A DNA stretch of 53,888 nucleotides from Patescibacteria group bacterium (GTDB lineage Bacteria; Patescibacteriota; Minisyncoccia; Minisyncoccales; PEYH01), in NCBI GenBank assembly GCA_034722415.1, contig JAYENY010000001.1, forward strand, positions 1 through 53,888, written 5' to 3'. Position numbers and translations under genes: made by a program. Below are positions 6,451 through 53,888 of the stretch, piece by piece. A model generated the notes under the pieces. The model was not told where the DNA came from, ran no database searches, and worked only from the letters and a program-made list of their open reading frames with translations. Each line of letters begins with the position of its first letter. Position 1 is the stretch's first letter.

Positions 6451-6986
6451 CTTGAATCTTTTTCGTCTGTTTTATCTGACGGTAAATAAATTTGGATAAA
6501 AAACTGAATTTCACCTCCTTCTAATTTAACGCTTTCTAGTTCGGCGTCCTCGATGAATCGATCTTTTTCAAAGGCTAAAATCTGCTGACCCAAGCTAACA
6601 AAATCATTAGAAATACCTCCTAATTTTGCCTGAGAATTATTCATATCTAACTCTAGAGAGGTGAAATAAACATTAGGATGAACAAAAACCTCTAGAAAGC
6701 TGAAAAAACTTGAAAGCTTTTTTCGATTCTCTAATAGACCAGCTATATCATCAATTTTCGCTTTAAAAGTTAAAATATCTTGCTCTACATCTTTATAGCG
6801 TTGGCTTTGGCCTGCAGAAATTTCTTGCCTAACCTCGCCTAAAAGAATTTCTGTATTATTAAACTTGTTATTAGTGATTAAATAAAGAAAAATGACAATG
6901 AATACCAAAAGAAAAGAAAACCATGGTAATATTTTCTTTATTCCTGATTCTTTTTTAGCTGATGCTTTGGGAATTACTTGAACCAT
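6447..6986 (-). CDS. pilN: PilN-like pilus alignment protein
   Basis: 179 aa with a short cytoplasmic N-terminus, a single TM and a coiled coil. Lies between pilM and pilO. Confidence 0.6.
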   Translation of the reverse strand: MVQVIPKASAKKESGIKKILPWFSFLLVFIVIFLYLITNNKFNNTEILLGEVRQEISAGQSQRYKDVEQDILTFKAKIDDIAGLLENRKKLSSFFSFLEVFVHPNVYFTSLELDMNNSQAKLGGISNDFVSLGQQILAFEKDRFIEDAELESVKLEGGEIQFFIQIYLPSDKTDEKDSR

Positions 6987-6993
6987 AATTAAT

Positions 6994-8836: not shown

Positions 8837-8841
8837 CTATG

Positions 8842-8925
8842 CGGAGAGGGTGGGATTCGAACCCACGAGTCTGTTAGGACGCTGGTTTTCAAAACCAGTG
8901 GAATAAGCCGCTATCCGACCTCTCC
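8842..8925 (-). tRNA. tRNA-Ser(UGA)
   Basis: Hand-folded cloverleaf. Acceptor GGAGAGG/CCTCTCC, anticodon loop TTTGAAA, long variable arm, T-loop TTCGAAT. No encoded CCA. Confidence 0.85.
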
Positions 8926-8950
8926 AAATCTAAATACTTATAATAAAATG

Positions 8951-9035
8951 CGGAGAGGGTGGGATTCGAACCCACGAGGGGAAAATCCCCAACACATTAG
9001 CAGTGTGTCACTTTTAACCACTCAGTCACCTCTCC
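8951..9035 (-). tRNA. tRNA-Ser(GCU)
   Basis: Same acceptor and T-arm as the neighbouring Ser tRNA. Anticodon stem ACACA/TGTGT with loop CTGCTAA, and a long variable arm. Confidence 0.85.
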
Positions 9036-38581: not shown

Positions 38582-38605
38582 TAATTAATAGATAATTATT
38601 ATTTA

Positions 38606-40075
38606 TTATTGAATTTCTTCCCATCCCCTATAACTAAACTCTTCGGAGATACATGGTAAAAACGGAGGAGGGTAGTACCCAAGTTCTGGGTTATAAAGAT
38701 TTTCTCTTTCCATGTAACCGCTAACCGGACTTCCTCCTGATGTCCATTGTGTCCCTACTCTACCATTGCTAACTATAGTACCATAAATATTTAATTCTTC
38801 CTTTTTTCCATACGAAGGATACCATGCCGCAGAATAATAATTAATACCAAATTTTCCTGTTTGCGCTATAAAAATTCCGTGAAGATCCATATATTGAGGA
38901 GAATCTGGGCTAATTAAAACATCTTGTTGGCTAATTAAGACAAATCCGTCTGCGTTACCTCCATATTTATACTCAATATTACCTTTTAGCCAGGCGTTTA
39001 CCTCTTCCTCTGGATTAATTAAATTAGCTACGGCCAAAGTCATTCTTCCGCCTATCTCTCCTTCAATCCAGACATTATCTTCTATGTATATAAGGCCACA
39101 ATCTTCTAGGATGTATTCAATCGCCGCGCCTTCTTCGCTAATAATTGAATATTCCCAATGATAACCTTCCTCTTCGGTATAAGCTCTAACTCTACTTAAT
39201 TCTGTAATCTTACTAACACTTAATGTTCTGTCGTCTATTATAACATGATAACCTTCCTCATCAGAAGGAGGGAAATAAAGACCTTTACCATCTCCCTCTG
39301 GTAATGGTTGAGTTAAGGATTTAATTCTGCCTAAATCAACTGTAATTCCTTCGAAATCAAAATGAGAAGATCCAATCCTAAAAAAATCTTGGTTCCCATT
39401 GGCTGTTGTAAAAACTCCTGGGCACACGCATTCCTCGCCAGGTATCCATTCACAGTCAGAAGGACAACTAGTACAGCCATAAGAATGAGTACAAACCCAT
39501 TCTTCTTGCTCTGACATTACTAAAGAATTATTAGTTGCATCCATTCTGATTCCTCCATTAGAGTGATATGGACCCATGATTATTCTATCCGCTCCCGCCC
39601 AAACATCGTGATTCAGAATATATGAATATTCAGCTACGCTAGGTTTAATATAACGTACCCTAATCTTTCTTCGAACATCTGGAAACTGAGGAGTCCAGCC
39701 GATAACGGTAACGCCCATTGCCACACTAACTCCGCAAGACCTATCTTCGTCTATCTCCAATTGATATTTTCCAACTACCCCTACCCCAGGTAAAGCTAAT
39801 TCATATTCACATTCAGCACAATCAGCACAATCAGATGGGGGACAACCAATTTCTTCTCCTCCAAAAATTTCTTGAGATTTTTGAATTAGATACCACTTAT
39901 ATCTATCAAGCCCAGATTCAGCTACATGAAGGGACTGTTCATAGGCAAGCTCATATTTCGCCTGTCTCAACTGTGAAAGAATAAAACTTAATAATCCAGC
40001 TAAAATCAATAAAAAAACAAAACCAAAAATCAAGATATAAGTAATAATAAAACCTTTGTTTTTATCTTTCTTCAT
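38606..40075 (-). CDS. Large PilX-like minor pilin (hydrophobic N-terminal helix without Glu5), Cys-rich
   Basis: 489 aa. KNKGFIITYILIFGFVFLLILAGLLSF followed by LRQAKYELAYEQSLHVAESGLD (PilX_N-like). Cys clusters include CPPSDCADCAEC and CTHSYGCTSCPSDCEWIPGEECVCPG. Confidence 0.65.
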   Translation of the reverse strand: MKKDKNKGFIITYILIFGFVFLLILAGLLSFILSQLRQAKYELAYEQSLHVAESGLDRYKWYLIQKSQEIFGGEEIGCPPSDCADCAECEYELALPGVGVVGKYQLEIDEDRSCGVSVAMGVTVIGWTPQFPDVRRKIRVRYIKPSVAEYSYILNHDVWAGADRIIMGPYHSNGGIRMDATNNSLVMSEQEEWVCTHSYGCTSCPSDCEWIPGEECVCPGVFTTANGNQDFFRIGSSHFDFEGITVDLGRIKSLTQPLPEGDGKGLYFPPSDEEGYHVIIDDRTLSVSKITELSRVRAYTEEEGYHWEYSIISEEGAAIEYILEDCGLIYIEDNVWIEGEIGGRMTLAVANLINPEEEVNAWLKGNIEYKYGGNADGFVLISQQDVLISPDSPQYMDLHGIFIAQTGKFGINYYSAAWYPSYGKKEELNIYGTIVSNGRVGTQWTSGGSPVSGYMERENLYNPELGYYPPPFLPCISEEFSYRGWEEIQ

Positions 40076-40079
40076 TTTT

Positions 40080-41081
40080 TTAATCTTCTCCCATCTTTAA
40101 ATTTCTTAACTGAACCTTGCTTTCTAGAGTATAATCTCCTGGGTCGTAATCTGGCTCCACATTAATAATTAAAGATACTTGCATTAAGCGAGTTTCCTCT
40201 GGTCTAGCGGGATATTCAATAATTTCTTCACCGTTTTCATCAAAATATCTAAAAACATACTTTTCGGGATCCGATAATTTATTTTGAACATAAACAGATA
40301 AAACTTCTACCTCTTCTTGATCGCTTAAATAAACTGGTGGGTCTTCTATTGGATTTATTACTCCTCTCTTAAATTCCATATCCTGCCCCGTAGTAGTTTC
40401 TGTCCAAGACAATATAAATTGTGCTTTCATTGAATGGCCTGGCTCCTGCCAATTGCAAAAATTATCCACTTTTTTAGATGCATCAGCAATAAATTGAAGA
40501 AAATTGTCTTGGGCTTGTTCTGTGACATCAAAAGAAATCGTTGACTGCCAGAAGCCAGAACAATCAGAGCATTCTCCCTGGCTGTCGCATAATTCTCCTA
40601 GACTAATACCGTCAACAAAAATTTCTGAGAATTCCCGTACCCAGCCAAAGTCTCCCTCAATACTAATTTGAACTTGAGCCTGCTCTAATATTCCTTCATA
40701 AAAATCCGAAAAAACAACAGAACACGAACCGCCAGTAATATTGCTAACACAATCTTCGGTTTCTTCTTTATTAGAAACTCCTCCTAAAAAATAGCGTACT
40801 CTTTCTATATCTCCATCATTATCAATGTCGCTGAAAAAAATAAATTCGCTATCTTCCGCTTTTTCAATAATATACGAGCCATCTCCTCCTGCTCGCGCCT
40901 CTCTTATCTCTCTAACCATAACCTTAACCCCTCTTCTCGCCTCATCAATAGCGTATGCTTGATTCCATGCATAATTATTTGTTTTATAAAGAAAAGGAAT
41001 TAAACTAAATAGGGCGCCAGAAATCAGCCCAAAGATTGCGATGGCTACTAACATTTCAATTAATGTAAATCCTTTATTCAT
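40080..41081 (-). CDS. Minor pilin / pseudopilin (PilW/GspJ-like) with a Cys-rich insertion
   Basis: MNKGFTLIEMLVAIAIFGLISGALF prepilin motif. ERVRYFL beta-strand motif. 8-nt overlap with the upstream gene. Confidence 0.8.
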   Translation of the reverse strand: MNKGFTLIEMLVAIAIFGLISGALFSLIPFLYKTNNYAWNQAYAIDEARRGVKVMVREIREARAGGDGSYIIEKAEDSEFIFFSDIDNDGDIERVRYFLGGVSNKEETEDCVSNITGGSCSVVFSDFYEGILEQAQVQISIEGDFGWVREFSEIFVDGISLGELCDSQGECSDCSGFWQSTISFDVTEQAQDNFLQFIADASKKVDNFCNWQEPGHSMKAQFILSWTETTTGQDMEFKRGVINPIEDPPVYLSDQEEVEVLSVYVQNKLSDPEKYVFRYFDENGEEIIEYPARPEETRLMQVSLIINVEPDYDPGDYTLESKVQLRNLKMGED

Positions 41082-42876
41082 ACCTTTCTAATCCTACTGT
41101 TTTATAATCTTCTCCTGTGATACCAAAAGAATACGATTTATTATAATAATTATCTGCTTCAATGTTTAAACTATAATTTGGATTAGAGTCTAAGGGAATA
41201 AAGAGCGCCTCTCCTTCCATGTTTGTGCTATTAGCTTCCTCATACTCTAAGGGAGAATTAGAAAGAGAAACCATGGCTCCAAAAATTGGATCCGTACTAG
41301 AGGCATCTTGAACCTTAACTAATAAAGAGTTGTCTGATTCCAAATAAAGAACAACAGCAGTAGTTGTTCCCGAAGAAAGATTGTATGGCATTGGACTTAG
41401 CCCTTGATTAAGGTTTAATGATTGATCATCCTTGTTGAAATCAGAAAAATAATAATTATCTGTTTCCATTTCTAAAAATTCTTTTTCACCGCTTAAATTC
41501 GAGGAATAATTCCCATCATATTTATAAATCAGCTCTTCGCTTGCATCTGTTCCTACTATTTTATCTCCCCTTAAGTCAAAATTAACGCTAGCGATTGGAG
41601 TGGCTGAGCCATTTTTCCATGAAAGTTGCCAATCGTAAAGAGTTGGAGTTTTTTCTAAATTATTAGTCGAAAAACTTGTTTTAATCTTTAAGTTAGGAAA
41701 CTCTAATACATCTAAAGAAGATAAATCGATCGGAGAAGAATCAAATCCATTCTCGTTGCCAGGCAAATTACTATTTGGAATTAAATGCCAATCACTGCTA
41801 GTGCTATAAAAAAGCTGATAATTAATATCTGTTTGTAATTCTTCAAAGTCAGACCATTCTAATTCATACCATTGAGTTATTCCTGCTGGAATAATAGCGT
41901 CCGAAACTAGGTCCCCTGAAGGAAAATAAGTAACAGGAGAACTGGCTGCTAATGTAGCTTTTCCATCAGCAATTGTTAAATTATTAATTTCGGAAATCTT
42001 ATCTTGATTCAAAAAAGTATCTAAGAAACTACCTCCTCCCCACGAAAGGGAAGTACTTACTGTTAGATCGCTAGATTCATCCATAATAAAAGTAATGGGA
42101 TATACCTCTCCTTCTCTAATCGTGGGATTGTTTCTTGTTGGAGCAACAATAATCGAACCATTGTATTCCTCTCCTGACTTAAATGTTTGATCAATACCAT
42201 ACCCTTGCTTTTCAACAATAATCTTATAATCATTGGATGATTCAGAAGCGTCTAAAATTAAAAGTCTCGTCCCAATGCTTTGTAGATCAGTGCCATAACA
42301 CTGGTCTATGCCAAGAGTTTGATTAATAATGCGAATAGTATCATCTGGGCAGGGGGGCAACTGATCTCCAGTTTGAATCTCAATTGGTTGCCCCGAGCTG
42401 TTGCTTAAAGCAATACGCAAAGCACCCTTTCCCTCTCCCGTTTCTAACCCGTCAGAAGCAATATTTGTACTTAAAACAGTTTCTCCTCCAAAAAAATCAG
42501 CCCAAAGAATTCTAACTTTTATTTTTTTGTAATCATTAGGCGCTACATCTGGAGCGACAATTAATCCACCACAATCAAACCCGCTTATCGTACCATCAGC
42601 ACAGTCATCAAAATCCTCAACTAAAGTTTGAATATTATAAGAAACCCCATTTAGAATAATAGTATCTTCACTCGTCTCAATATTGCTAAAAGATAAATTT
42701 CTTAATTCTTCAATACTTTGGCTTGCTAAATATACGGCTCCCATTTTAGCCTTTGATTGCGCGACGACTTTGATTGCTAATCTAAAACCGCCCACGATTC
42801 CTATAAAAACAATTGAAATTAAAAAACACGCCACCAAAACTTCTATAAGTGTAAATGCTTTTTGTTTTCTTCTCAT
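41074..42876 (-). CDS. Giant minor pilin / pseudopilin (600 aa) with a C-terminal carboxypeptidase-regulatory-like beta-sandwich
   Basis: MRRKQKAFTLIEVLVACFLISIVFIGIV prepilin motif. C-terminal LLVKVQDASSTDPIFGAMVSLSN...EGEALFIPLDSNPNYSLNIEADNYY. Confidence 0.8.
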   Translation of the reverse strand: MRRKQKAFTLIEVLVACFLISIVFIGIVGGFRLAIKVVAQSKAKMGAVYLASQSIEELRNLSFSNIETSEDTIILNGVSYNIQTLVEDFDDCADGTISGFDCGGLIVAPDVAPNDYKKIKVRILWADFFGGETVLSTNIASDGLETGEGKGALRIALSNSSGQPIEIQTGDQLPPCPDDTIRIINQTLGIDQCYGTDLQSIGTRLLILDASESSNDYKIIVEKQGYGIDQTFKSGEEYNGSIIVAPTRNNPTIREGEVYPITFIMDESSDLTVSTSLSWGGGSFLDTFLNQDKISEINNLTIADGKATLAASSPVTYFPSGDLVSDAIIPAGITQWYELEWSDFEELQTDINYQLFYSTSSDWHLIPNSNLPGNENGFDSSPIDLSSLDVLEFPNLKIKTSFSTNNLEKTPTLYDWQLSWKNGSATPIASVNFDLRGDKIVGTDASEELIYKYDGNYSSNLSGEKEFLEMETDNYYFSDFNKDDQSLNLNQGLSPMPYNLSSGTTTAVVLYLESDNSLLVKVQDASSTDPIFGAMVSLSNSPLEYEEANSTNMEGEALFIPLDSNPNYSLNIEADNYYNKSYSFGITGEDYKTVGLERYE

Positions 42877-42923
42877 ATTCCTCCCGTAATCAGGTTTGTT
42901 AGATCCCTAGTTATTATTATTTT

Positions 42924-42932
42924 ATTCTAACA
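42924..42932 (-). promoter_or_regulatory. Extended -10 promoter candidate (TGtTAGAAT) for the minor-pilin/pilMNO unit
   Basis: Minus strand reads TGtTAGAAT (rc 42924-42932). An SD, GGGAGG, lies just upstream of the ATG at 42876. Confidence 0.4.
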
Positions 42933-42957
42933 AAAAAACGCCTAGTTGGCGATTTTT
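42932..42957 (-). terminator. Short terminator after the pilC-like gene
   Basis: Minus strand reads aaaaatCGCC-aacta-GGCGttttttt. The stem is only 4 GC pairs, with A/T extension and a T7 run. Confidence 0.4.
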
Positions 42958-42995
42958 ACGCTCTTGTATTTAATTCTTTTCGTGTCCTCTATTTC

Positions 42996-44231
42996 TTACA
43001 TCCCCTCCATTATCGAATACATAGGTTGAACCATAGCAATGGCAAAAAATCCAACCATTGATCCTATAACTATTAAAAGAACTGGCTCAATAATAGAAGA
43101 TAAATTTTGGGTCGCATTACTTACTTGTTCTTCGAAAAAATCAGCCAATTTAGTTAACATCTCTGATGTTTTTCCTGTTTCTTCCCCTATCTTTAACATT
43201 TGTAAAAAAAGTTGGGGATAAAGATCTGAGAATCCAGACATAGCAGCAGAAAGCTTCTTGCCTTTTTGGACTTCTTTTGCTGAATTTTTTAACGCTTCTT
43301 TGAAATAAATATTGTTTACTGCGCCAGACGAAATTTCAAGTGCAGATACTATCGGAACACCACCGTTTATCATAGCGCTTAAAGACAGGGAAGTGTAAGC
43401 ACAATTTATTTTCCTTATCAAGGTTGAAAGCACTGGAGTTCTTAAGAAAAATTTATCTAAAAACTTTTTGCCTGATTTAGTTCTAGATAAAACAATAATT
43501 AAGAATGGTATTCCAATTAAAAATATAATAACGATATACCAGTAAGAAACGAAAAATCCTCCAAGCGCAATCACAAATCTTGTCATGAGTGGCAAATCTA
43601 TTCCCAATTCTTGAAATGTTTGGCTTAATTGAGGAACAACTTTTACTAACATTACAATGCCAATTAAAATCATGGCTCCAATAATCACTGACGGATAAAC
43701 CATTGCACCCTTAACCTTAGCCCTTAACTTATAATTCCTCTCTAATTGAACTGCTAATATGCCTAAAATTTCTTCCATTTTACCAGTCTGTTCTCCAACT
43801 TTAATCATGCTAGAATAAATTTCAGGAAAAATCTTCGGGTATTTAGCTACTGCAACAGATAATGCTAAGCCCTTAACAATCTTTTCTTTTATTTCTAAAA
43901 GAACTTTTTTAAAATATTTATTCTTAGTTTGAAGAGCTAATACATCTAATGCTTTAGGCAAAGAAACCCCAGCCGAAATCATTACTTGCAAGTTCTTAGT
44001 CATCATTAACTTCTCGGTTAAAGACACTCTACGAAACGTTAGTGAGATATTTATTTCTTTTCCTCCTTTTTTCTTGTCTTTTGCTTTTCCTTTTTTCTTT
44101 GCTTCAGCTGAAATTAAAAAAAAGCCTTCCGACTTTAATAGGCGTGCTAATTTTGCTTTATTACTAGCTTCTTTTTGTCCTTTTTGCTTTTTACCTTCTA
44201 TTGATTTAGCAATGTAATTATAATTTGGCAT
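42996..44231 (-). CDS. PilC/GspF-family platform protein (locus 2)
   Basis: 411 aa with duplicated T2SSF domains and three TMs. A Lys-rich insertion lies near the N-terminus. Confidence 0.85.
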   Translation of the reverse strand: MPNYNYIAKSIEGKKQKGQKEASNKAKLARLLKSEGFFLISAEAKKKGKAKDKKKGGKEINISLTFRRVSLTEKLMMTKNLQVMISAGVSLPKALDVLALQTKNKYFKKVLLEIKEKIVKGLALSVAVAKYPKIFPEIYSSMIKVGEQTGKMEEILGILAVQLERNYKLRAKVKGAMVYPSVIIGAMILIGIVMLVKVVPQLSQTFQELGIDLPLMTRFVIALGGFFVSYWYIVIIFLIGIPFLIIVLSRTKSGKKFLDKFFLRTPVLSTLIRKINCAYTSLSLSAMINGGVPIVSALEISSGAVNNIYFKEALKNSAKEVQKGKKLSAAMSGFSDLYPQLFLQMLKIGEETGKTSEMLTKLADFFEEQVSNATQNLSSIIEPVLLIVIGSMVGFFAIAMVQPMYSIMEGM

Positions 44232-44242
44232 AAATCAAATAT

Positions 44243-45997
44243 TTATTCCATAATTACTCGAAGAATTTCCTCTAGAGTAGTAATTCCTTGAGCTGCCTTA
44301 ACAAAACCATCTTCTGCCATTGTTCTCATTCCTTCTTTAATTGCCCTTTCTTGAATTTGGCTAGAAAAAACTCCTTTATTAATCAATCTCTTTATGCTTT
44401 CTGTAATTGGCAAAACTTCATAAATTCCGCATCTTCCTTTGTAGCCCTTTGGACAGGTTTTGCTTTTTTTATGATTATAGAATTTTATATTAGAAAGATT
44501 TTGACTAGATTTAATAATCTTATCTTCTTTTAGCGCATTTAAAAAACGACTAGAGTCACAAGATTCAAATAATTCTTTTATTTTTTTAGCGCTTATCTTA
44601 TGTTCTTCTTTATCTTCGCAAAGTTTCCTTACTAAGCGCTGTGCTAAAACTAAATTTAATGTAGACGCGATTAAAAACGGTTCTATTTTCATATCTATAA
44701 GGCGAGGGATTGCACCAGCTGCACTATTTGTGTGTAGCGTAGACAAAACTAAATGCCCAGTAAGTGCTGCGTTAATTGCTAAGGAAGCGGTTTCACTATC
44801 TCTAATTTCTCCGACCATAATAACATCAGGGTCCTGCCTCAATAAAGAGCGAAGTCCATTCGCAAATGAAAGCCCAATTTTAGGCTTCACTTGAGTCTGG
44901 TTAACTCTTGGCATCTGATATTCAATAGGATCTTCTATTGTACAAATATTAACCTCTGGAACATTTAAAATTTCCAACATGGAATAAAGGGTGGTTGTTT
45001 TACCAGATCCAGTTGGGCCTGTAACTAAAATTAATCCAGTTGGTTTTTTGATTGCAGTTTCAATATATTCCAGCGCTTTTCCTCTTAACCCTAGTTCTTC
45101 TAAAGAATGTCCTTTTATCCCTTCTGCTAAAAGACGCATCACTATTTTTTCTCCATTCAAAACTGGTAACACAGATACCCTAACTGAATATCTCCCATTG
45201 CTAGTTTTAAATTTGAAGCGTCCATCTTGAGGTAAGCGATGTTCGTCTAGCTTAAGGTCTGCGAGAACTTTTATTCTGGCAACAACTCCTGGAGCAATCT
45301 GCTTAGGGAGAGTCATAGCATCTCTTAATATTCCATCAATTCTATAGCGAACTGTAACTTCTTTTTCTGATGGTTCAATATGAATATCTGACGATCTGTC
45401 TAAAACAGCATGTTGTAAAAGAGTTTCAACTATTCTAATGACCGGCATTTCTTGGGCTACTTGTTCTAAATTTTCTCCGTTTTTTTGCTTAGATTTTTTC
45501 TCTAAAAGTATCGGCTTTATATCCTTAGCCTCTTTTTTAATCAACTCCTTAAACTCTGCTTTTAGAGTTTTTCTGTATTGAGATAAAATATTCTTAATTC
45601 CTACAGGGGTAGTTAATCGTGGCAGAATCTTTAAATCTGATTTCTTTTTTATGAAATTAATAGTCTGAAGATCCTCTGGATCAAGCATTGCTACTTCTAA
45701 TTCCTTTTTTGTCTTTTTAAACGCAACAATATTGTGAGAGCGGGCGATTGGTTCAGGAATAATATCTAGAGCTTCCGGCGCAACAACTGTTTTCTCTAAA
45801 TTAACAAAAGGAATACCAAGAATATATGCTTTTAATCGGCTTAAATCTTCTTGAGAAATAAAATTATTAACAATCAAAACGTCTTCAACGTCTTCTTTGG
45901 ATTCTTTAGCAATTTTTTGTGCTTCAGCGAACTGTTCTTTAGTAAGAAGTTCTGCGTCCAATAAAAATGCCTTAAGTTGTTTGTTATCAACTTTCAT
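44243..45997 (-). CDS. PilB/GspE-family assembly ATPase (locus 2)
   Basis: 584 aa. T2SSE N-domain, GPTGSGKTT, IMVGEIRD and TLHTNSA. The Cys motif is degenerate (one Cys, then CPKGYKGRCG). Confidence 0.9.
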   Translation of the reverse strand: MKVDNKQLKAFLLDAELLTKEQFAEAQKIAKESKEDVEDVLIVNNFISQEDLSRLKAYILGIPFVNLEKTVVAPEALDIIPEPIARSHNIVAFKKTKKELEVAMLDPEDLQTINFIKKKSDLKILPRLTTPVGIKNILSQYRKTLKAEFKELIKKEAKDIKPILLEKKSKQKNGENLEQVAQEMPVIRIVETLLQHAVLDRSSDIHIEPSEKEVTVRYRIDGILRDAMTLPKQIAPGVVARIKVLADLKLDEHRLPQDGRFKFKTSNGRYSVRVSVLPVLNGEKIVMRLLAEGIKGHSLEELGLRGKALEYIETAIKKPTGLILVTGPTGSGKTTTLYSMLEILNVPEVNICTIEDPIEYQMPRVNQTQVKPKIGLSFANGLRSLLRQDPDVIMVGEIRDSETASLAINAALTGHLVLSTLHTNSAAGAIPRLIDMKIEPFLIASTLNLVLAQRLVRKLCEDKEEHKISAKKIKELFESCDSSRFLNALKEDKIIKSSQNLSNIKFYNHKKSKTCPKGYKGRCGIYEVLPITESIKRLINKGVFSSQIQERAIKEGMRTMAEDGFVKAAQGITTLEEILRVIME

Positions 45998-48015: not shown

Positions 48016-48087
48016 CGGGGCATAGTGCAATTGGTAGCACGAGTCCTTTGGGAGGATTTAGTCCCAGTTCGAGTCTGGGTGCCCCGA
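48016..48087 (+). tRNA. tRNA-Pro(UGG)
   Basis: Acceptor CGGGGCA/TGCCCCG, anticodon loop TTTGGGA, T-arm CCCAG-TTCGAGT-CTGGG. Confidence 0.85.
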
Positions 48088-48109
48088 CATTGAGATAAAA
48101 ATATAATAA

Positions 48110-48180
48110 GCGGGGGTAGTTCAACGGTAGAACCTCAGATTTCCAATCTGATAATGCGGGTTCGATTCCCGTCTCCCGCT
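48110..48180 (+). tRNA. tRNA-Gly(UCC)
   Basis: Acceptor GCGGGGG/CTCCCGC, U73, anticodon stem TCAGA/TCTGA with loop TTTCCAA. Confidence 0.85.
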
Positions 48181-48191
48181 CAAAAACTAAA

Positions 48192-48253
48192 AACCACCTA
48201 TTTTTCTATCCGATTCCCTTTTTAAGAGGGGAGGATAGCCGAAGGTGGTTTTT
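48192..48253. terminator. Long bidirectional terminator hairpin
   Basis: aaccacct (48192-99) pairs with aggtggtt (48243-50), with an inner ctatcc/ggatag pairing. T-runs follow on both strands. It lies between the convergent tRNA-Gly and hup. Confidence 0.6.
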
Positions 48254-48266
48254 AATTTCTAAAAAT

Positions 48267-48539
48267 TTATCTAACGATATCTTTTAACGCTTTACCTGAT
48301 TTAAATCTTGGAACAGTTGTAGCTGCAATCTTAATAGCTGCACCTGTTTGAGGGTTACGTCCCATTCTAGCTTTTCTCTTGCTAACTAGAAATTTGCCAA
48401 AGCCAGTTAATACTACTTCGTCTCCTTTTGCTAGTGCTTTTCCAATTTCATCTAAAAGAGTATTTAAAAATTCTCCGGATACTGTTTTAGAAAGCCCTGA
48501 TTTGCTTGCTAAAACTTCAACTAATTGTTGTTTTGTCAT
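48267..48539 (-). CDS. hup: DNA-binding protein HU
   Basis: 90 aa. GFGKFLVSKRKARMGRNPQTGAAIKIAATTVPRFKSGKALKD. Confidence 0.9.
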   Translation of the reverse strand: MTKQQLVEVLASKSGLSKTVSGEFLNTLLDEIGKALAKGDEVVLTGFGKFLVSKRKARMGRNPQTGAAIKIAATTVPRFKSGKALKDIVR

Positions 48540-48591
48540 GTTTTTATATTCCGTTTACTTATTAACTCGACCTTTATTATCTAATTACTTA

Positions 48592-50121
48592 TTACTTAGC
48601 GTATTCTATCACTCTTTTCTCCCTAATTGCAATAACCTTGATCTCTCCTGGGTATTTTAACTCTTCAGCGATGTTCTTGGCAATATCTCGTGCTAGTTTT
48701 TGAGTTGCCATATCATCTAGCCTGTCTGGGCTAACAAAAACCCTTAATTCTCTTCCTGCTTGAATAGCATATGCTTTTTCCACTCCCTCAAAAGAGGTTG
48801 CTATGCCCTCTAGATCGCTTAGTCGTTTAAGGTAATTTTCAAGAGTATCTTTTCTAGCTCCAGGCCTTGCTCCGGAAATTTGATCAGCAGCTTGGACAAT
48901 ATGGGCCTCAAGAGTTTCATAAGGATATTCTTCGTGATGAGATTTCATTGCAGCGATAACTTCTTTCTCAACGCCAAATTTCTCTAAAATTTTAATTCCT
49001 ATATCAACGTGAGATCCTTGCACTTGATGATCAATCGCTTTACCAATATCGTGGAGAAGTCCTGCTTTACGAGCTACTTTAACATCTGCTCCAATCTCTT
49101 CAGCCAACATTCCGCTCAATAATGAAACCTCTATAGAATGCAATAAAACATTCTGTCCATAACTAGTTCTAAAGCGTAATCGGCCCAATAGCTCAATCAG
49201 CTTCGGCTGAAGATCAAGCACTCCTGTTTCATAAATTGCTGTTTCTCCTGCTTTCTTTATTTGTTCAGATACTTCTTCCTCTACACGGAGAACTATCTCT
49301 TCAATTCTGGCTGGTTGAATGCGACCATCCTTAATTAATCGTTCCATTGCTAGTTTAGCAATATGACGACGCAAAGGATTAAATCCAGAAATAGTTATTG
49401 CTTCTGGAGTTTCGTCAACTAAAACTTCAACGCCTGTAGCTTTTTCAAATGCTCTAATATTTCTCCCTTCTTTCCCAATTATTCTTCCCTTTATTTTATC
49501 AGAAGGAAGAACAACTGTACTTGTTGTACTATCTTGAGCTTGAGAAAGAGCAAATCTCTGAATTGCAAGAGTCAAAATCTCTTTTGCCTTTTGTCTAAAC
49601 TTTTCCTCTCCATCTTTCTCTAATCTCATCATTTTCTCTAAAATCTCTCTTTGAGATTCTTTCTCTACTCTTAACAAAAGCTCTTTTCTAGCTTCGTCTT
49701 GATGAAGTTGAGAAATGCCTTCTAATTTTTGAATCTCCTGACTTACTAAAGAGTTCAATTTTTCTTTCAACTCTTTTATTTCGTCTGCTTTTTCATAAAT
49801 CTCTTTTTCTCTGTTGTCTAAGCCGACAATTCTAGTTTGAAGATTGTTCTCTCTTTTTAAGAGAAATCCTTCTGTTTTAGAGAGCTCTCTTTTTCTAGTT
49901 TCTTCTTCACCTCTGGCTTTTTTAATTATATCTGAGGATCTGCGATCAGCGTCTTTTTTAATTGTCTCAGCTTCTTTCTTTGCATGAGCAATTCTTTTCT
50001 CAATCCTTTCTTCTAGGCTGCCGATTTGCTTCTTGGCAATAGATTGACGAGTTAGGTATCCTAAGAATGAACCGATGACAACACCTGCAATACCTACTAT
50101 CAATAGGGTAAGTTGAATCAT
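48592..50121 (-). CDS. rny: Ribonuclease Y
   Basis: N-terminal TM, a long coiled coil, KH domain (GRIIGKEGRNIRAFE) and HD domain (LLHDIGK). Confidence 0.9.
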   Translation of the reverse strand: MIQLTLLIVGIAGVVIGSFLGYLTRQSIAKKQIGSLEERIEKRIAHAKKEAETIKKDADRRSSDIIKKARGEEETRKRELSKTEGFLLKRENNLQTRIVGLDNREKEIYEKADEIKELKEKLNSLVSQEIQKLEGISQLHQDEARKELLLRVEKESQREILEKMMRLEKDGEEKFRQKAKEILTLAIQRFALSQAQDSTTSTVVLPSDKIKGRIIGKEGRNIRAFEKATGVEVLVDETPEAITISGFNPLRRHIAKLAMERLIKDGRIQPARIEEIVLRVEEEVSEQIKKAGETAIYETGVLDLQPKLIELLGRLRFRTSYGQNVLLHSIEVSLLSGMLAEEIGADVKVARKAGLLHDIGKAIDHQVQGSHVDIGIKILEKFGVEKEVIAAMKSHHEEYPYETLEAHIVQAADQISGARPGARKDTLENYLKRLSDLEGIATSFEGVEKAYAIQAGRELRVFVSPDRLDDMATQKLARDIAKNIAEELKYPGEIKVIAIREKRVIEYAK

Positions 50122-50248
50122 ATTTTATATTGGAAGACTGGTAAAACATTTTAGATTGTTATTAGAATCACCGAATTCCAAGCTTAATTACTAGTGTTTG
50201 AATAAAATCTATCAAAAGAAACCTTATTTGTAAAGCTTTTTTAATTTT

Positions 50249-50836
50249 TTATTTCTTTTTTGCTTCTATAACTGTATCAATTAATCCGTATTCTTTAGCA
50301 TCTTGAGCAGAAAGATAAAAATCTCTATCTGTATCGCTTGCAATCTTTTTTAATGGCTGGCCAGTAAGTTTAGCTAAAATCTTATTAAGTTTATCCTTTA
50401 TCTTTATAATCTGTTTCGCAGTAATTTCAATTGCGCTTGCCTCTCCACTTACTCCGCCAGCAACTTGGTGAATCAAAATTTCACCATTAGGTAATGCAAA
50501 TCTTTTTCCTTTTGCCCCAGCCGCTAAAAGAACGGCTCCCATAGATGCTGCTAATCCGACACACACCGTGCTAACTGGGCAATTAACATATTGCATGGTG
50601 TCGTAAATAGCTAACCCAGCAGTCACAGAGCCACCTGGGCTATTAATGTATAGCTTAATCTCTTTCTTTGGATCTTTGCTTGCTAGAAAAAGTATCTGAG
50701 CAATAATCGAATTTGCTGTTGTGTCAGAAATTGGCCCAGCTAGGAATATAATTCTATCCTCTAATAGGCGAGAATAAATATCATAAGCTCTTTCTCTCTG
50801 TCCATCTTTTTCAATAACTGTAGGAATTAAATTCAT
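50249..50836 (-). CDS. clpP: ATP-dependent Clp protease proteolytic subunit
   Basis: 195 aa. [15 protein letters not shown], catalytic [11 protein letters not shown] and a His in the LIHQ context. Confidence 0.95.
50807..50836. repeat. Direct repeat copy A (first 10 codons of clpP)
   Basis: The 30 nt tttttcaataactgtaggaattaaattcat are identical to 52385..52414. Confidence 0.9.
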
Positions 50837-50914
50837 AATAATTTGTATTAAATATTAATCAATTAGATCCTCCCTTACATCCTCCGGGACGATGTAAGCT
50901 ATTTAATTTGATTT

Positions 50915-51592
50915 TTAATCAATAAATTTGAATGTCGAAAGAATTTCGTCATAGATTAGGTCTTTTTTATCCCAAGAAACAGTTCCCCAAAAAGCGTAAG
51001 CAAAATTATCTGTACGAACGATAAATTTATGTTCATCGTGTATTCCTGTATCGTAAACTTGATCGGCGATACCGCAAATAAATTCCTTAGTTTGTTTACC
51101 ATCAATTTTCAAATCAGAATTTTTATTTTCGGTTATCATACCCATGACACCAGAATGAGCGATGGTTTCATCGGATTCGTGAGAATACCATATCTCGATA
51201 TTGATATTCCGAGACCAAGGATAAAACTCATAATTTTTATCTTTGTCTGCAGAGAACAAAAGATGTGCTGCACAAGAGCCAATACTAAATCTCTTTTCAG
51301 CAATGTGCCATTCTTCCGGATATTTTACCTCAAATCCATATTCATCGCTCCTATAAACTTCCCAATCAGCCATTTCGTCAGCTCGAGGAGTGGAGGTCGG
51401 GGAGGGCGACAGAGTTGGGGTTGGCGACGGGTTTGGGCTAATTGTAGAACTTGGAGAAGGAACGACTTCTGGTAAAAATTGCCAAACCAGAACACCTGCC
51501 ACAACCGCTACTAAAAGAACAACGAGAATCCCTGTCGGCGTAGAAATTTCTTTGTAAGATATTGCTTGAGATTCTTTTTGTTTCTTCTTCAT
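50915..51592 (-). CDS. Membrane-anchored/secreted hypothetical protein with a Pro/Ser/Thr-rich linker
   Basis: 225 aa. Signal anchor GILVVLLVAVVAGVLVW, linker PSPSSTISPNPSPTPTLSPSPTSTP, then a globular domain starting WEVYRSDEYGFEVKYPEEW. Confidence 0.6.
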   Translation of the reverse strand: MKKKQKESQAISYKEISTPTGILVVLLVAVVAGVLVWQFLPEVVPSPSSTISPNPSPTPTLSPSPTSTPRADEMADWEVYRSDEYGFEVKYPEEWHIAEKRFSIGSCAAHLLFSADKDKNYEFYPWSRNINIEIWYSHESDETIAHSGVMGMITENKNSDLKIDGKQTKEFICGIADQVYDTGIHDEHKFIVRTDNFAYAFWGTVSWDKKDLIYDEILSTFKFID

Positions 51593-51649
51593 GACCTTAA
51601 TTATGCTAATTACAAATTATTGATTATTTTTTCCGAGGACAAACTTATA

Positions 51650-51985
51650 TCAATTTAATTTTAACTCAAAACCGGTTCTCTTAATCTCGTTAAGAAAGGC
51701 GCTGCTTGTTGCAAAATCTTCCTCTGTAAATCCTACTGGCTCTAATCCAGCCATCACTTCCTCTCTTTTTCTCTTGGTGAGCAAAAATTCTACGGCTTTT
51801 AATGCGTTCTTAAATTTAGGAGAAATAATACAGACATCTATGTCTGACCAAGTATGTGTTTTCCCCGTAGCTTGAGAGCCAAAAATCATTACTCTCTTTA
51901 TTGGTAATTTTTCTTCTTCTGACAAGCGTTGAGTATAATTCCTCACTATTTTAGCTACTTTTTTTGAAACTCTTTTTTTAGCCAT
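51650..51985 (-). CDS. Minimal nucleotidyltransferase (MNT) domain protein, putative antitoxin
   Basis: 111 aa. The pol-beta NTase motif is FGSQATGKTHTWSDIDV (GS...DxD). Confidence 0.75.
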   Translation of the reverse strand: MAKKRVSKKVAKIVRNYTQRLSEEEKLPIKRVMIFGSQATGKTHTWSDIDVCIISPKFKNALKAVEFLLTKRKREEVMAGLEPVGFTEEDFATSSAFLNEIKRTGFELKLN

Positions 51986-52368
51986 AAAAGTAAATTTTTG
52001 GTAATCTCTAAATATTCTGCGGCTACCGCTTTATTATTATATTTTTGATAAAATTCAAACTTCTCTTCAGAATACCGACCAGCAATATTAAAAGTAAAAA
52101 TTTTATCTAAAGCCATTTGTTGCTCTTTGGTTAAATTCACTCCAGCCAATTCTGCCAATCTTCGCAAATCGTGGACAAAAGGAGCAAATTCCTTGGTTTT
52201 CTTTATAAATAGGGCTTTGAGTATTTTCTCCAAGCTTAAATGACAGAAAAACAACGATTGAGGGTAAAGTCCTTTCTCAAACAAAATTTTCGCTGCCTTA
52301 AAATCGTTGAAGGAACTCTCTCTCCAATATTTTATGCTTTTTTGAAGATAATTGGAATCTATCTTCAT
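51955..52368 (-). CDS. HEPN-domain protein, putative toxin partner of MNT
   Basis: All-helical, with HDLRRLAELAG and AGRYSEE segments typical of MNT-associated HEPN proteins. 31-nt overlap with the MNT gene. I prefer the ATG at 52368 over the TTG at 52392, which lies inside the duplicated clpP fragment. Confidence 0.65.
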   Translation of the reverse strand: MKIDSNYLQKSIKYWRESSFNDFKAAKILFEKGLYPQSLFFCHLSLEKILKALFIKKTKEFAPFVHDLRRLAELAGVNLTKEQQMALDKIFTFNIAGRYSEEKFEFYQKYNNKAVAAEYLEITKNLLLWLKKEFQKK

Positions 52369-52372
52369 GGAT

Positions 52373-52414
52373 TTAATTATAAATTTTTTCAATAACTGTA
52401 GGAATTAAATTCAT
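52373..52414 (-). pseudogene. Relic copy of the clpP 5' end ([10 protein letters not shown] then IYN*), direct repeat copy B
   Basis: 52385..52414 is identical to 50807..50836. Its ATG overlaps the NUDIX stop codon as ATGA. Confidence 0.85.
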
Positions 52415-52932
52415 GATTTTAATATTAATTCTTTTGCTTTTTTAAGAAGAGTTAAATCTCTTTTAACAATAAATTTTCCGTCATAGGTAGTAGGATTGTC
52501 TTGTTCTAAAAAATCAATAGCCTGATCTATCGGCACCCATAATGATTCAAATTGATTCTCTATCTCCTCCTTGTCAAATTGCGGTTTTGATAATTCTCCT
52601 CTTATCTTTGCGAGATAACAATAATTTATTTGCAGTTTATCTATTTTATTCCTATATTCTATGATAATACCTATTGCGTCCCCAATTTCTATTTCGCATC
52701 CCGCTTCCTCACGAACTTCTCTCCTTAACGCCTGCTCTATTGTTTCGTGATCTTCAACTCCTCCTCCTGGGAGTTTATGATAATTGTGCTTAGAAACAAA
52801 TTCAAGGGCAATCTCATTTTTATCATTAATAACAACTCCGCGAACAGCTTTTCTTAAGCGATAAGGCTTATCAAATCTTTCTATCTCGCCATTATTGGTG
52901 TCTTTATCTGTTATTTCTAATAGAAGCTCCAT
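52411..52932 (-). CDS. NUDIX hydrolase
   Basis: Nudix box GGGVEDHETIEQALRREVREEAG. Confidence 0.85.
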   Translation of the reverse strand: MELLLEITDKDTNNGEIERFDKPYRLRKAVRGVVINDKNEIALEFVSKHNYHKLPGGGVEDHETIEQALRREVREEAGCEIEIGDAIGIIIEYRNKIDKLQINYCYLAKIRGELSKPQFDKEEIENQFESLWVPIDQAIDFLEQDNPTTYDGKFIVKRDLTLLKKAKELILKS

Positions 52933-52938
52933 TTCTGT

Positions 52939-53888
52939 TTACGGTTTTATTATCTTACTTGTTAAATCTTCTAAAAACTGTAATGTTTTCTCTTGTTCGA
53001 TTCTCTCTTTAAGATACGCTCTTAATGCCGCATGGTCAATGCTTTCTTTGTTTTTCTCATTAGCGGGATGCTTTAAAAAAGCATTAATTTCTTTTTCCAA
53101 CTCCTCTTTCCTAGCTTCAATTTTTTCTTGTTTTTGTATTTCTCCCAAAACTAATATTTTCTTAATTCTATCTATAATCTCTGAGTCTAAAGAATCTTCT
53201 AATTCTTTTTCGCTCTTTTTAACCTTCTTCAAATAATCTTCAAATGATATCTTAAGAGACTCTGAGACATTTTTTTTCAGATTTTCCATTGCTTTGCGTT
53301 TCTCGCTTACAACTAAAATTTCTGGAACATCCCAATCGCACTCTTTAACAATAGAGCTTAAAATGTCATTTCTTACTCTTTGTCTTTCCATCACTTCTTT
53401 CTCTTTTTCCATTTGAACACTTATTGTTTTTTTCAATTCTTCTGGTTTGTCAAAATTCATTCTTTTTCTTTCCTCTTCTGGTATTTTATCCTTCATTTCC
53501 TGAACTTGTTTAAGGGCTGTTTCAATTTCTTTATCTTCAATAACTATTTTTTGTTTTTTAACTTGTTTAGATATTTTTTTGTAATCAGGCAATTTTATTT
53601 CCGGCAAAACAAAAATTGTGGCCTTAAACTCTAGGGGATTGTTCAATGCTAATTTGAGAATTTCAATTTCTGGCAATCCGAGAGGTTCTAAATCCTTCTC
53701 TTTAATAGCTTGAATATAGTATCCTTGCACAGCTAATTGAGCAGCCTCACCTAAAATCTTGTCTTGCCCAATATCCTTGATAACTATTTCTTTTGGAACT
53801 TGCCCTTTTCTAAATCCTTTTTTTTCAAAATTCTTACACATCTCTTCTTCTGCTTGATCGATAAATTTCTTAAACTCTTCAAATTCAA
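52939..53888 (-). CDS. tig: Trigger factor (N-terminus runs off the window)
   Basis: The reading frame stays open upstream of the track Met (53841): ...FEEFKKFIDQAEEEMCKNFEKKGFRKGQVP. The GFRKGxVP motif of the ribosome-binding domain is present, followed by a helical C-terminal arm domain. Confidence 0.8.
   Translation of the reverse strand, partial: EFEEFKKFIDQAEEEMCKNFEKKGFRKGQVPKEIVIKDIGQDKILGEAAQLAVQGYYIQAIKEKDLEPLGLPEIEILKLALNNPLEFKATIFVLPEIKLPDYKKISKQVKKQKIVIEDKEIETALKQVQEMKDKIPEEERKRMNFDKPEELKKTISVQMEKEKEVMERQRVRNDILSSIVKECDWDVPEILVVSEKRKAMENLKKNVSESLKISFEDYLKKVKKSEKELEDSLDSEIIDRIKKILVLGEIQKQEKIEARKEELEKEINAFLKHPANEKNKESIDHAALRAYLKERIEQEKTLQFLEDLTSKIIKP

What the first reader, a model, noticed from the sequence alone, without database searches (positions are those of the whole stretch)
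50807..52414. 30-nt perfect direct repeat duplicating the clpP start brackets a ~1.55-kb inserted cassette
**Seen in the sequence.**
- 50807..50836 comprises the clpP ATG plus nine codons ([10 protein letters not shown]).
- It is repeated exactly at 52385..52414.
- In the second copy the ATG overlaps the NUDIX stop codon as ATGA, and the relic reading frame dies after 13 codons.
- Weaker similarity (attaatatt...) continues just upstream of both copies.
- Between the repeats lie HEPN, MNT and a 225-aa secreted protein.

**Established knowledge.** tig-clpP linkage is widely conserved. Site-specific integration leaves identical att cores at both ends of the insert.

**Inference.** A small toxin-antitoxin-bearing cassette integrated exactly at the NUDIX/clpP junction and regenerated the clpP start. 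No integrase or transposase is visible, so the mobilising mechanism is unknown.
Basis: partly seen in the sequence, partly recalled or inferred. Interest (0 to 1): 0.68.

Follow-up and report, generated by a model that had tools for sequence, protein, structure and literature searches.

The report
clpP-start relic in insertion hotspot
The 30-base repeat is real, but it is best read as a leftover copy of the clpP gene start, a scar of recombination in a gene-swapping hotspot between the tig and clpP genes of a Patescibacteria lineage; it does not mark the two ends of a mobile toxin-antitoxin cassette.

Summary
Positions 50807-50836 and 52385-52414 are identical, chance expects no such repeat, and a second assembly shows the same structure.

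- **Hotspot.** Relatives usually have tig directly followed by clpP (4-44 nt apart). The interval occurs in at least six states.
- **Not one unit.** The nearest relative with the whole interval, L094, has tig, a homologue of the secreted-protein gene, then clpP. What it lacks is NUDIX + clpP relic + HEPN + MNT (51630-52946). The relic therefore lies inside the lineage-specific block, and sec225 and the true clpP start lie outside it.
- **Unequal divergence.** A more distant relative, L101, has tig-HEPN-MNT-HTH-sec-clpP with no NUDIX and no relic. Between it and the window, HEPN and MNT are 85% and 82% identical, but the sec proteins only about 29%.
- **No att evidence.** There is no integrase, no unit-wise empty site and no cassette copy elsewhere. 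NUDIX homologues are never next to tig or clpP.
- **The 30-mer is frozen.** It is identical in diverged relatives, so perfect identity shows neither recency nor an att core.
- **Other scars.** Relatives carry different ones, including a 105-nt tig-end duplication and an ATPase 5' relic.

Best explanation: recombination between two alleles of this locus, one end homologous and the other an illegitimate A-run junction at clpP +30. The finding is ordinary and of modest interest.

The parts
50807..50836 (-). First 30 nt of the functional clpP gene (ATG plus 9 codons, [10 protein letters not shown]). This is the downstream repeat copy.
   Evidence: The same 30-mer starts clpP in L094, L095, L102, L103, L089, L091 and other relatives.
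52385..52414 (-). Relic copy of the clpP start. Its ATG overlaps the NUDIX stop as ATGA.
   Evidence: No similarity to clpP codons 11 onward follows it.
52373..52414 (-). Relic mini-ORF of 13 codons plus stop ([13 protein letters not shown]). It ends 4 nt before the HEPN ATG. A role in coupling translation from NUDIX to HEPN is inferred, not shown.
   Evidence: Sequence read directly.
52369..52389 (-). Junction zone: the A-run at the end of the relic (GAAAAA) plus the 16-nt HEPN leader. Homology to the tig-HEPN spacer of L101 begins here (17 of 25 bases match ungapped). This is the candidate illegitimate, microhomology junction.
   Evidence: BLASTN homology with L101 starts at 52389. One search gives weak statistical support only for the short leader.
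52411..52932 (-). NUDIX hydrolase gene. It is unique to this genome at this locus.
51955..52368 (-). HEPN-domain gene (137 aa), 85% identical to the L101 homologue. It has no Rx4-6H motif.
51650..51985 (-). MNT (minimal nucleotidyltransferase) gene. It overlaps HEPN by 31 nt and carries the motif GSx11DxD.
51593..51629 (-). Spacer upstream of sec225. It is homologous to the tig stop codon plus the tig-sec spacer of L094, and so marks the old tig/sec junction.
   Evidence: 77.7% over 193 nt including the sec N-terminus, E 3.5e-36. (5 of 2000 shuffles reach the score)..
50915..51592 (-). sec225: a 225-aa protein with an N-terminal membrane anchor and a Pro/Ser/Thr-rich linker. It is a fast-evolving long-term resident of the locus, with homologues in L093, L094 and L101.
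50874..50898 (-). Hairpin (8-bp stem) in the sec225-clpP spacer. L094 has a different hairpin at the same place.
   Evidence: z -2.3. Not reported by the terminator scan, and there is no Rfam hit.
50249..50836 (-). clpP gene (195 aa), intact.
51630..52946 (-). Block present in the window but absent from the nearest relative with the whole interval (L094): new tig tail, NUDIX, clpP relic, HEPN, MNT and about 20 nt.
52939..53888 (-). tig (trigger factor), cut by the contig end. Its C-terminal tail (...LTSKIIKP*) differs from that of relatives (...LIK*).

Best explanation
**What it is.** The upstream 30-nt copy is a dead fragment of a clpP 5' end. It is a recombination scar in a hypervariable interval between two conserved genes, tig and clpP, of this Patescibacteria family.

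**Proposed history (inferred).**
- One allele of the locus had NUDIX abutting clpP with an ATGA overlap.
- Another allele had tig-HEPN-MNT-sec-clpP, the arrangement seen in L101.
- DNA from one allele recombined into the other. One end was anchored by ordinary homology, in tig or in clpP-rny. The other end joined illegitimately at the A-run ending clpP nucleotide 30, to the leader about 16-21 nt upstream of HEPN.
- This is the pattern of homology-facilitated illegitimate recombination of linear DNA. A single-crossover integration of a locus-derived circle is a close variant.
- The favoured order is tig-sec-clpP, then gain of HEPN-MNT next to tig, then gain of [tig 3' part-NUDIX-first 30 nt of clpP] from a donor. 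In that order the relic is hitch-hiking donor DNA.

**Why the two copies are identical.** These 30 nt are invariant across the family, so identity says nothing about recency or a recombinase core.

**Shown:** the repeat, the gene identities, the hotspot, the composite nature of the bracketed DNA, the frozen 30-mer and the other scars.

**Inferred:** the two parental alleles, the direction of transfer, the microhomology junction and DNA uptake by transformation.
For: - **Hotspot.** The synteny nusA-H+-PPase-tig-clpP-rny-HU is conserved (nusA is seen only where the contig reaches that far). The tig-clpP interval varies:
  - empty in L095 (4 nt), L097-L099 (44 nt), L102/L103 (29 nt) and L104 (12 nt);
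  - a sec gene only in L094 and L093;
  - an AAA_14/DUF4143 ATPase in L091;
  - an ATPase 5' relic plus MNT in L082, L085 and L089;
  - HEPN-MNT-HTH-sec in L101.
- **Composite insert.**
  - Against L094, homology stops at 52947 and resumes at 51629. The resumed stretch matches the L094 tig stop, spacer and sec N-terminus.
  - Between the window and L101, HEPN and MNT are 85% and 82% identical in protein. The sec proteins are 29% identical in the C-terminal domain and 55% in the N-terminal anchor, tig is 57%, and synonymous-codon identity is 0.67-0.69 against 0.52-0.55.
- **NUDIX is foreign to the locus**, and its 3' end is native NUDIX coding sequence.
- **The 30-mer is frozen.** It is identical in L094, L095 and L102/L103, which were found through tig and not through the 30-mer. 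Synonymous codons elsewhere in clpP are only 48-57% identical, so nine identical codons would be expected with probability about 0.001-0.006.
- **Other scars of the same kind.**
  - L091 has a 105-nt duplication of the tig 3' end, 81% identical, flanking the ATPase.
  - L089 keeps the ATPase upstream region and its first 8 codons fused to about 19 nt of the HEPN 3' end and MNT (score 69 against 17 +/- 2.7 in shuffles).
  - In L101 the spacer after MNT resembles that genome's own tig end (p about 0.03).
- **No recombinase.** None of the locus genes matches a recombinase family in Pfam (sec225 matches none at all), and none of ten integrase-sized ORFs in the window does either. The window instead carries two type IV pilus clusters.
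- **Mechanism precedent.** Integration of linear DNA with homology at one end and an illegitimate joint at the other is documented (PMC3240628).
Against: - Neither parental allele was found at high identity. No tig-NUDIX-clpP genome exists in the collections searched, and the best HEPN-MNT-sec allele (L101) is distant.
- The microhomology is only an A-run in AT-rich DNA. The leader homology to L101 is statistically weak.
- The direction of transfer cannot be decided from the sequence.
- The relic ends exactly where the family-wide invariant block ends. A random breakpoint would hit that position only by coincidence, which leaves some room for a role of the 30-mer in the recombination itself.
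- Competence of this organism is inferred, not shown.
- If both alleles coexist in the sample, linkage across the 30-mer rests on assemblies whose reads were not inspected.
Confidence: 0.6

Rival explanations
1. A discrete element carrying HEPN-MNT-sec225 integrated into a tig-NUDIX-clpP chromosome. Integration was site-specific, or a Campbell-type single crossover, within a 30-bp core identical to the clpP start. This left attL and attR and regenerated clpP. The recombinase acts in trans or has been lost.
For: - Perfect 30-nt direct repeats bracket 1548 nt.
- clpP stays intact.
- The relic ends exactly at the end of the nucleotide-invariant 30-mer, as an att core inside a conserved target would.
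- HEPN-MNT looks more recently shared between lineages than the flanking genes.
- Other inserts at this locus are also flanked by duplicated gene ends (L091).
Against: - No integrase in the locus or among ten integrase-sized ORFs of the window.
- The bracketed DNA is not a unit. The sec gene is present without HEPN-MNT in L093 and L094, and MNT without sec in L089. sec225 has diverged far more than HEPN-MNT between the window and L101.
- The sec225 leader is collinear with the tig/sec junction of L094, which is chromosomal locus DNA and not element DNA.
- No second instance of a 30-mer-flanked insert appears in 11 metagenome loci carrying the 30-mer. Viral contigs gave no hit.
- The closest other HEPN-MNT modules checked (HEPN 68% identical) lie in unrelated sites without such flanks.
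- The 30-mer is not a dyad-symmetric recombinase-type site (by inspection).
Confidence: 0.13
2. A purely intragenomic rearrangement. NUDIX once lay immediately upstream of clpP in this same chromosome. NUDIX plus 30 nt of clpP was then duplicated or moved to the tig-proximal end of the interval, and the original copy was deleted.
For: It explains why NUDIX carries a clpP start and why the two copies are identical without invoking a second genome.
Against: - It needs at least two events, including a precise deletion that restores a sec-leader-clpP junction collinear with L094 (27 nt of leader).
- No trace of NUDIX lies next to the true clpP.
- No relative has sec-NUDIX-clpP.
Confidence: 0.08
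3. An assembly chimera. Two coexisting strains with different alleles of the interval were joined through the shared 30-mer, so the linkage NUDIX-relic-HEPN does not exist on one molecule.
For: - The locus is polymorphic among relatives.
- Both assemblies break at the same base inside tig (53888), which hints at strain heterogeneity nearby.
- 30 nt equals k-1 for a k=31 assembly graph.
Against: - Two assemblies agree base for base over 5.8 kb across both copies.
- A chimera cannot create the junction between the relic and the HEPN leader. That junction must exist in reads.
- 150-nt reads would span a 30-nt repeat.
Confidence: 0.05

Closest known systems
Scars of homology-facilitated illegitimate recombination (one-sided homologous integration of linear DNA in transformable bacteria; PMC3240628)
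   Same: - Foreign genes are added next to a conserved anchor gene.
- One side shows continuous homology and the other an abrupt junction at a short A-run.
- Short duplicated or truncated gene ends are left behind.
- No recombinase gene is present.
   Different: - The parents are not available, so the anchor side and the microhomology are inferred.
- The organism is uncultivated and its competence is unproven.
- The incoming DNA appears to be another allele of the same locus, not unrelated DNA.
attL/attR direct repeats of integrase-mobilised genomic islands, including integrase-less remnants
   Same: Identical direct repeats flank accessory genes, one repeat forms part of an intact target gene, and the cargo is of toxin-antitoxin type.
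   Different: - No integrase.
- The bracketed DNA is composite and partly an old resident of the locus.
- No unit-wise empty site.
- The repeat identity is explained by family-wide conservation.
- Other scars at the same locus involve different sequences (the tig 3' end, the ATPase 5' end).
Chromosomal integration hotspots between conserved core genes, often holding defence and toxin-antitoxin genes (general concept, from my own knowledge)
   Same: - The flanking core genes are conserved.
- At least six different contents occur in relatives, including empty sites.
- The contents match candidate defence families: PADLOC PDC-S01 for the ATPase, PDC-S09 for MNT and PDC-S07 for NUDIX.
   Different: - The interval is very small (0-2.2 kb) with gene-tight junctions.
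- There are no mobile-element genes at all.
- The host is a reduced Patescibacteria genome.
HEPN/MNT (HepT/MntA, type VII) toxin-antitoxin modules (PMC7641770, PMC2701414)
   Same: Adjacent overlapping HEPN and MNT genes, a nucleotidyltransferase motif in MNT, and a patchy, mobile distribution.
   Different: - The HEPN protein lacks the Rx4-6H RNase motif.
- MNT scores below the NCBIfam MntA cut-off.
- Toxin-antitoxin activity is therefore not established here.

Membership tests
Site-specific integrative element (attL/attR-flanked) | Identical direct repeats at both insert ends, one within the target gene | tested here: met
   30-nt exact repeat, 50807-50836 and 52385-52414.
Site-specific integrative element (attL/attR-flanked) | Recombinase (integrase) encoded in or next to the element | tested here: not met
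   Pfam assigns the locus genes to NUDIX, HEPN, NTP_transf_2, no family (sec225) and ClpP. Ten integrase-sized ORFs elsewhere in the window are pilus or housekeeping genes. The rest of the genome was not available.
Site-specific integrative element (attL/attR-flanked) | The bracketed DNA behaves as one unit: absent as a unit at empty sites, or present as a unit elsewhere | tested here: not met
   sec without HEPN-MNT in L093 and L094. MNT without sec in L089. HEPN-MNT-HTH-sec without relic in L101. Divergence is unequal, 82-85% against 29% amino-acid identity.
Site-specific integrative element (attL/attR-flanked) | An unoccupied attB exists (tig-NUDIX-clpP with an ATGA junction) | tested here: not met
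   Not found among 80 genome loci with NUDIX homologues or for the closest homologue. Absence from databases is not proof.
Homology-facilitated illegitimate recombination scar | Continuous homology on one side of the new DNA and an abrupt non-homologous junction on the other | tested here: met
   tig and clpP-rny are collinear with relatives. The relic ends abruptly at +30, with no similarity to clpP codons 11 onward.
Homology-facilitated illegitimate recombination scar | Microhomology of a few bases at the illegitimate joint | tested here: inconclusive
   An A-run (GAAAAA/AATAA) overlaps the start of homology to the L101 leader. The short alignment is not significant and the parents are unknown.
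Homology-facilitated illegitimate recombination scar | The host takes up DNA (natural competence) | not testable with these tools
   Only suggestive: two type IV pilus clusters in the window.
Integration hotspot between core genes | Conserved flanking genes with variable content among relatives, including empty sites | tested here: met
   At least six states across L082-L104 and the window.
HEPN/MNT type VII toxin-antitoxin | MNT nucleotidyltransferase motif GSx(9-13)DxD | tested here: met
   GSQATGKTHTWSDID. Pfam NTP_transf_2, 1.4e-10.
HEPN/MNT type VII toxin-antitoxin | HEPN RNase motif Rx4-6H | tested here: not met
   No match in the 137-aa HEPN protein.
HEPN/MNT type VII toxin-antitoxin | Curated MntA family score | tested here: not met
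   NCBIfam NF047752 scores 32.1 bits against a cut-off of 60.
Integron gene cassette | attC-type imperfect inverted repeat at the cassette end and an intI/attI platform | tested here: not met
   The repeat is the coding 5' end of clpP and has no dyad symmetry (by inspection). No integrase was found.

The most novel reading that the evidence does not exclude
The nucleotide-frozen first 30 nt of clpP, and perhaps the tig 3' end, would serve as a dedicated attachment site. At that site an unlinked, still unidentified recombinase or a competence-coupled pathway would insert small defence and toxin-antitoxin genes in Patescibacteria. That would be an integrase-free, integron-like cassette dock. The repeated scars at gene ends in several relatives, and the coincidence of the relic end with the end of the invariant block, would be its footprints.
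Probability: 0.07. Interest if true: 0.7.

Novelty: new member of a known kind. Interest (0 to 1): 0.3.

Why it matters
- It corrects a tempting misreading. Perfect direct repeats around toxin-antitoxin genes need not be att sites when the repeated sequence is itself invariant across the lineage.
- It documents a tiny, integrase-free gene-swapping hotspot between tig and clpP in uncultivated Patescibacteria, with several independent scars.
- That is indirect sequence evidence that these reduced, probably DNA-scavenging bacteria gain and lose defence-type genes through homology-assisted recombination and not through classical mobile elements.
- The effect on understanding is modest. Hotspots and recombination scars are well known.

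Tried and rejected
- **Extended repeat.** The upstream 'attaatatt' similarity as part of the repeat is rejected. It is the native NUDIX C-terminal coding sequence.
- **Composition.** The bracketed genes have GC 0.32-0.39 against 0.346 for the window, and GC3 is only slightly raised. This is uninformative.
- **Viral collection.** The 30-mer has no hit there.
- **RNA.** No Rfam family matches in 50100-53100. The hairpin after sec225 is only modestly stable.
- **Promoter and terminator scans.** Counts are near the shuffle expectation.
- **Recombination breakpoint inside tig.** A sliding-window comparison gave no clear signal, so the anchor side stays undecided.
- **tig-end relic after MNT in L089, beyond the stop-codon context.** Not significant. 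The same idea has modest support in L101 (p about 0.03) and good support for the window against L094.
- **The HEPN leader of L101 as an older decayed clpP-start relic.** 14 of 18 bases match, which is not significant.
- **Flanking duplications around HEPN-MNT in unrelated contexts (L105, L107).** None found.
- **Integron, Xer/dif-type or transposon target-duplication readings.** Rejected. There is no dyad symmetry, no recombinase or transposase, and 30 nt is far longer than a usual target-site duplication.
Full report
**1.

All genes in the region lie on the minus strand. In coding order they are:

| Feature | Coordinates |
|---|---|
| tig | 52939 to beyond 53888 |
| NUDIX | 52411-52932 |
| 30-nt copy of the clpP start | 52414..52385 |
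| HEPN | 51955-52368 |
| MNT | 51650-51985 |
| sec225 (225-aa membrane-anchored, Pro/Ser/Thr-rich protein) | 50915-51592 |
| clpP | 50249-50836 |
| rny, then HU | downstream |

- The repeat 50807-50836 = 52385-52414 is exact and is bounded by mismatches on both sides.
- None of 100 dinucleotide shuffles contained even one match at up to 3 mismatches.
- It is the only long exact repeat in the window outside tRNA genes.
- The relic ATG overlaps the NUDIX stop as ATGA. Its frame reads [13 protein letters not shown] and stops 4 nt before the HEPN ATG.
- A Logan assembly of run SRR26901924 is identical over 48043-53888.
- The extra 'attaatatt' similarity upstream is not part of the repeat. In the relic copy it encodes the native NUDIX C-terminus, which resembles the C-termini of NUDIX homologues from unrelated contexts.

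**2. Source organism and relatives.**

The contig is a Patescibacteria metagenome-assembled genome. Relatives were found in two independent ways.

- An exact search for the 30-mer in metagenome contigs gave L082-L092.
- Trigger-factor homologues, followed by context look-ups, gave L093-L104.

Nucleotide identities place the window as sister to L093, L094, L095 and L097 (tig 76-80%, clpP-rny 84%). L102, L104 and the L082/L089/L091 group come next at about 77%. L101 is the most distant, with tig at 64%.

**3. The tig-clpP interval is a hotspot.**

The synteny nusA-H+-PPase-tig-clpP-rny-HU is conserved where the contigs are long enough to show it. The interval between tig and clpP varies as follows.

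| State | Loci |
|---|---|
| Empty (4-, 44-, 29- and 12-nt spacers) | L095; L097-L099; L102/L103; L104 |
| One sec gene whose first 61 residues are 62% identical to sec225 | L094; L093 (contig ends inside the gene) |
| AAA_14/DUF4143 ATPase followed by a 105-nt duplicate (81%) of the tig 3' end | L091 |
| ATPase upstream region and first 8 codons, fused to about 19 nt of the HEPN 3' end and an MNT 86% identical to the window's | L082, L085, L089 |
| tig-HEPN (85%)-MNT (82%)-HTH-sec314-clpP | L101 |
| tig-NUDIX-relic-HEPN-MNT-sec225-clpP | the window |

L089 and L091 are close to each other (92% in tig, 100% over the first 127 nt at clpP) and still differ in content. Turnover at this locus is therefore fast.

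**4. The DNA between the repeats is not one cassette.**

- Against L094, homology runs through tig to 52947. It resumes at 51629, which matches the L094 tig stop codon, its tig-sec spacer and the sec N-terminus (77.7% over 193 nt, E 3.5e-36). It resumes again 27 nt upstream of clpP (short-alignment support).
- The block specific to the window is therefore 51630-52946: NUDIX, the relic, HEPN and MNT. One repeat copy lies inside this block. The other lies beyond sec225, an older resident of the locus.
- Between the window and L101, HEPN and MNT are 85% and 82% identical in protein, with synonymous-codon identity of 0.67-0.69. The sec proteins share only 29% in the C-terminal domain and 55% in the anchor. 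tig is 57% identical, with synonymous identity of 0.55. The parts have different histories.
- The closest other HEPN-MNT modules whose context was looked up (HEPN 68% identical) lie in unrelated neighbourhoods and have no flanking duplications. The module moves, but it is not tied to this site.
- NUDIX homologues in 80 reference genomes, and the closest homologue (69% identity), are never next to tig or clpP. NUDIX is itself an arrival, and the predicted empty site tig-NUDIX-clpP was not found.

**5. Perfect identity is not informative here.**

- The same 30-mer starts clpP in L094, L095 and L102/L103. These loci were found through tig, so they were not selected for the 30-mer.
- Synonymous codons in the rest of clpP are only 48-57% identical to the window. 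Nine identical codons would be expected with probability about 0.001-0.006 per genome.
- The block is therefore frozen at the nucleotide level across the family, and identity always ends at codon 11, which varies.
- A clpP start from any family member, old or recent, would match the resident copy over exactly these 30 nt.
- The relic really ends there. What follows has no similarity to clpP codons 11 onward. It aligns instead with the leader upstream of HEPN in L101, with homology starting within the terminal A-run. The short leader alignment alone is not significant.

**6. Mechanism.**

- No recombinase is encoded at the locus or among ten integrase-sized ORFs of the window. Those ORFs belong to two type IV pilus clusters and to housekeeping genes.
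- The scars differ between relatives: a tig 3' duplication, an ATPase 5' relic, a HEPN 3' remnant and a clpP 5' relic. Each combines intact homology on one side with an abrupt junction on the other.
- This is the pattern of homology-facilitated illegitimate recombination of linear DNA (PMC3240628). A Campbell-type single crossover of a locus-derived fragment is a close variant.
- My preferred history is tig-sec-clpP, then HEPN-MNT added next to tig, then a donor fragment [tig 3' part-NUDIX-first 30 nt of clpP]. That fragment would be anchored in tig and joined at the A-run to the HEPN leader.
- The mirror-image history is equally compatible with the sequence. In it a tig-NUDIX-clpP recipient takes up an HEPN-MNT-sec-clpP fragment anchored in clpP.
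- Sliding-window identity along tig shows no breakpoint that would decide between the two.
- DNA uptake by transformation, and a possible role of the relic mini-ORF in coupling HEPN translation to NUDIX, are inferences.

**7. Rival explanations.**

- **Site-specific or Campbell integration of an HEPN-MNT-sec225 element.** This is not excluded. In its favour, the relic ends exactly at the end of the invariant block. Against it are the composite nature of the segment, the lack of a recombinase and the absence of any second instance.
- **A purely intragenomic move of NUDIX.** This would need an implausibly precise deletion.
- **An assembly chimera.** This is unlikely, because two assemblies agree and the relic-HEPN junction must exist in reads. 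Reads were not inspected, and both assemblies stop at the same base in tig.

**8. Comparison with known systems, and verdict.**

- The locus is a small integration hotspot between core genes. Its contents match candidate defence families: PADLOC PDC-S01, PDC-S09 and PDC-S07.
- The HEPN/MNT pair resembles type VII toxin-antitoxin modules (PMC7641770, PMC2701414). However, the HEPN protein lacks Rx4-6H and the MNT scores below the MntA cut-off. Toxin-antitoxin function is therefore not established.
- The repeat is a new example of a known kind of recombination scar. Interest is modest.

Noticed in passing
window 50807-50836; clpP starts in L083-L103: The first 30 nt of clpP are invariant at every synonymous site across relatives whose other synonymous codons are only 35-57% identical. 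Identity always ends at codon 11. The cause is unexplained; it could be a constraint on translation initiation or some other role.
   Followed up: partly
L091 118-222 and 1605-1709: A 105-nt direct duplication (81%) of the tig 3' end flanks a 420-aa AAA_14/DUF4143 ATPase (PADLOC PDC-S01, 2.7e-89) inserted between tig and clpP. The downstream copy is still an open 32-codon ORF.
   Followed up: partly
L089 5570-5714 (same in L082): The ATPase upstream region and its first 8 codons are fused to about 19 nt of the HEPN 3' end, followed by a solo MNT gene. If the pair is a toxin-antitoxin module, this is an orphan antitoxin left by a deletion.
   Followed up: partly
window 53888 (contig end, about 42 nt into tig): The NCBI contig and the independent Logan contig end at exactly the same base inside tig. 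This suggests strain heterogeneity or a coverage break just upstream of the hotspot.
   Followed up: no
window 50915-51592; L094 7022-7564; L101 2923-3867: The gene next to clpP encodes a surface-type protein. Its N-terminal anchor and Pro/Ser/Thr linker are conserved, but its C-terminal domains are divergent or swapped (225, 180 and 314 aa). No Pfam family matches sec225.
   Followed up: partly
window 51955-52368: The HEPN protein lacks the canonical Rx4-6H RNase motif although it is paired with, and overlaps by 31 nt, an MNT that has an intact GSx11DxD motif. The same 31-nt overlap is kept in L101, L105 and L107.
   Followed up: partly
window 50874-50898: An 8-bp hairpin lies between sec225 and clpP (fold z -2.3). 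L094 has an unrelated palindrome at the same position. It may be a terminator or an mRNA end, but it has no T-run.
   Followed up: partly
window 1034-8052 and 37499-45997: Two separate type IV pilus gene clusters (PilM, T2SSF, T2SSE, an N_methyl pilin) lie in one 54-kb window. An 85-nt repeat (78%) at 320-404 and 837-921 may mark tandem paralogous genes.
   Followed up: no
window 8839-8869 and 8948-8978: Two adjacent tRNA-Ser genes (anticodons tga and gct) share an identical 31-nt 3' segment. The window holds 20 tRNA genes in all.
   Followed up: no
L101 1805-1825: The leader just upstream of HEPN in L101 (AACTTAATCACTAAAGTT) matches clpP nucleotides 4-21 at 14 of 18 positions. It might be an older decayed clpP-start relic, but the match is not significant (about 10% of shuffles reach it).
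   Followed up: partly
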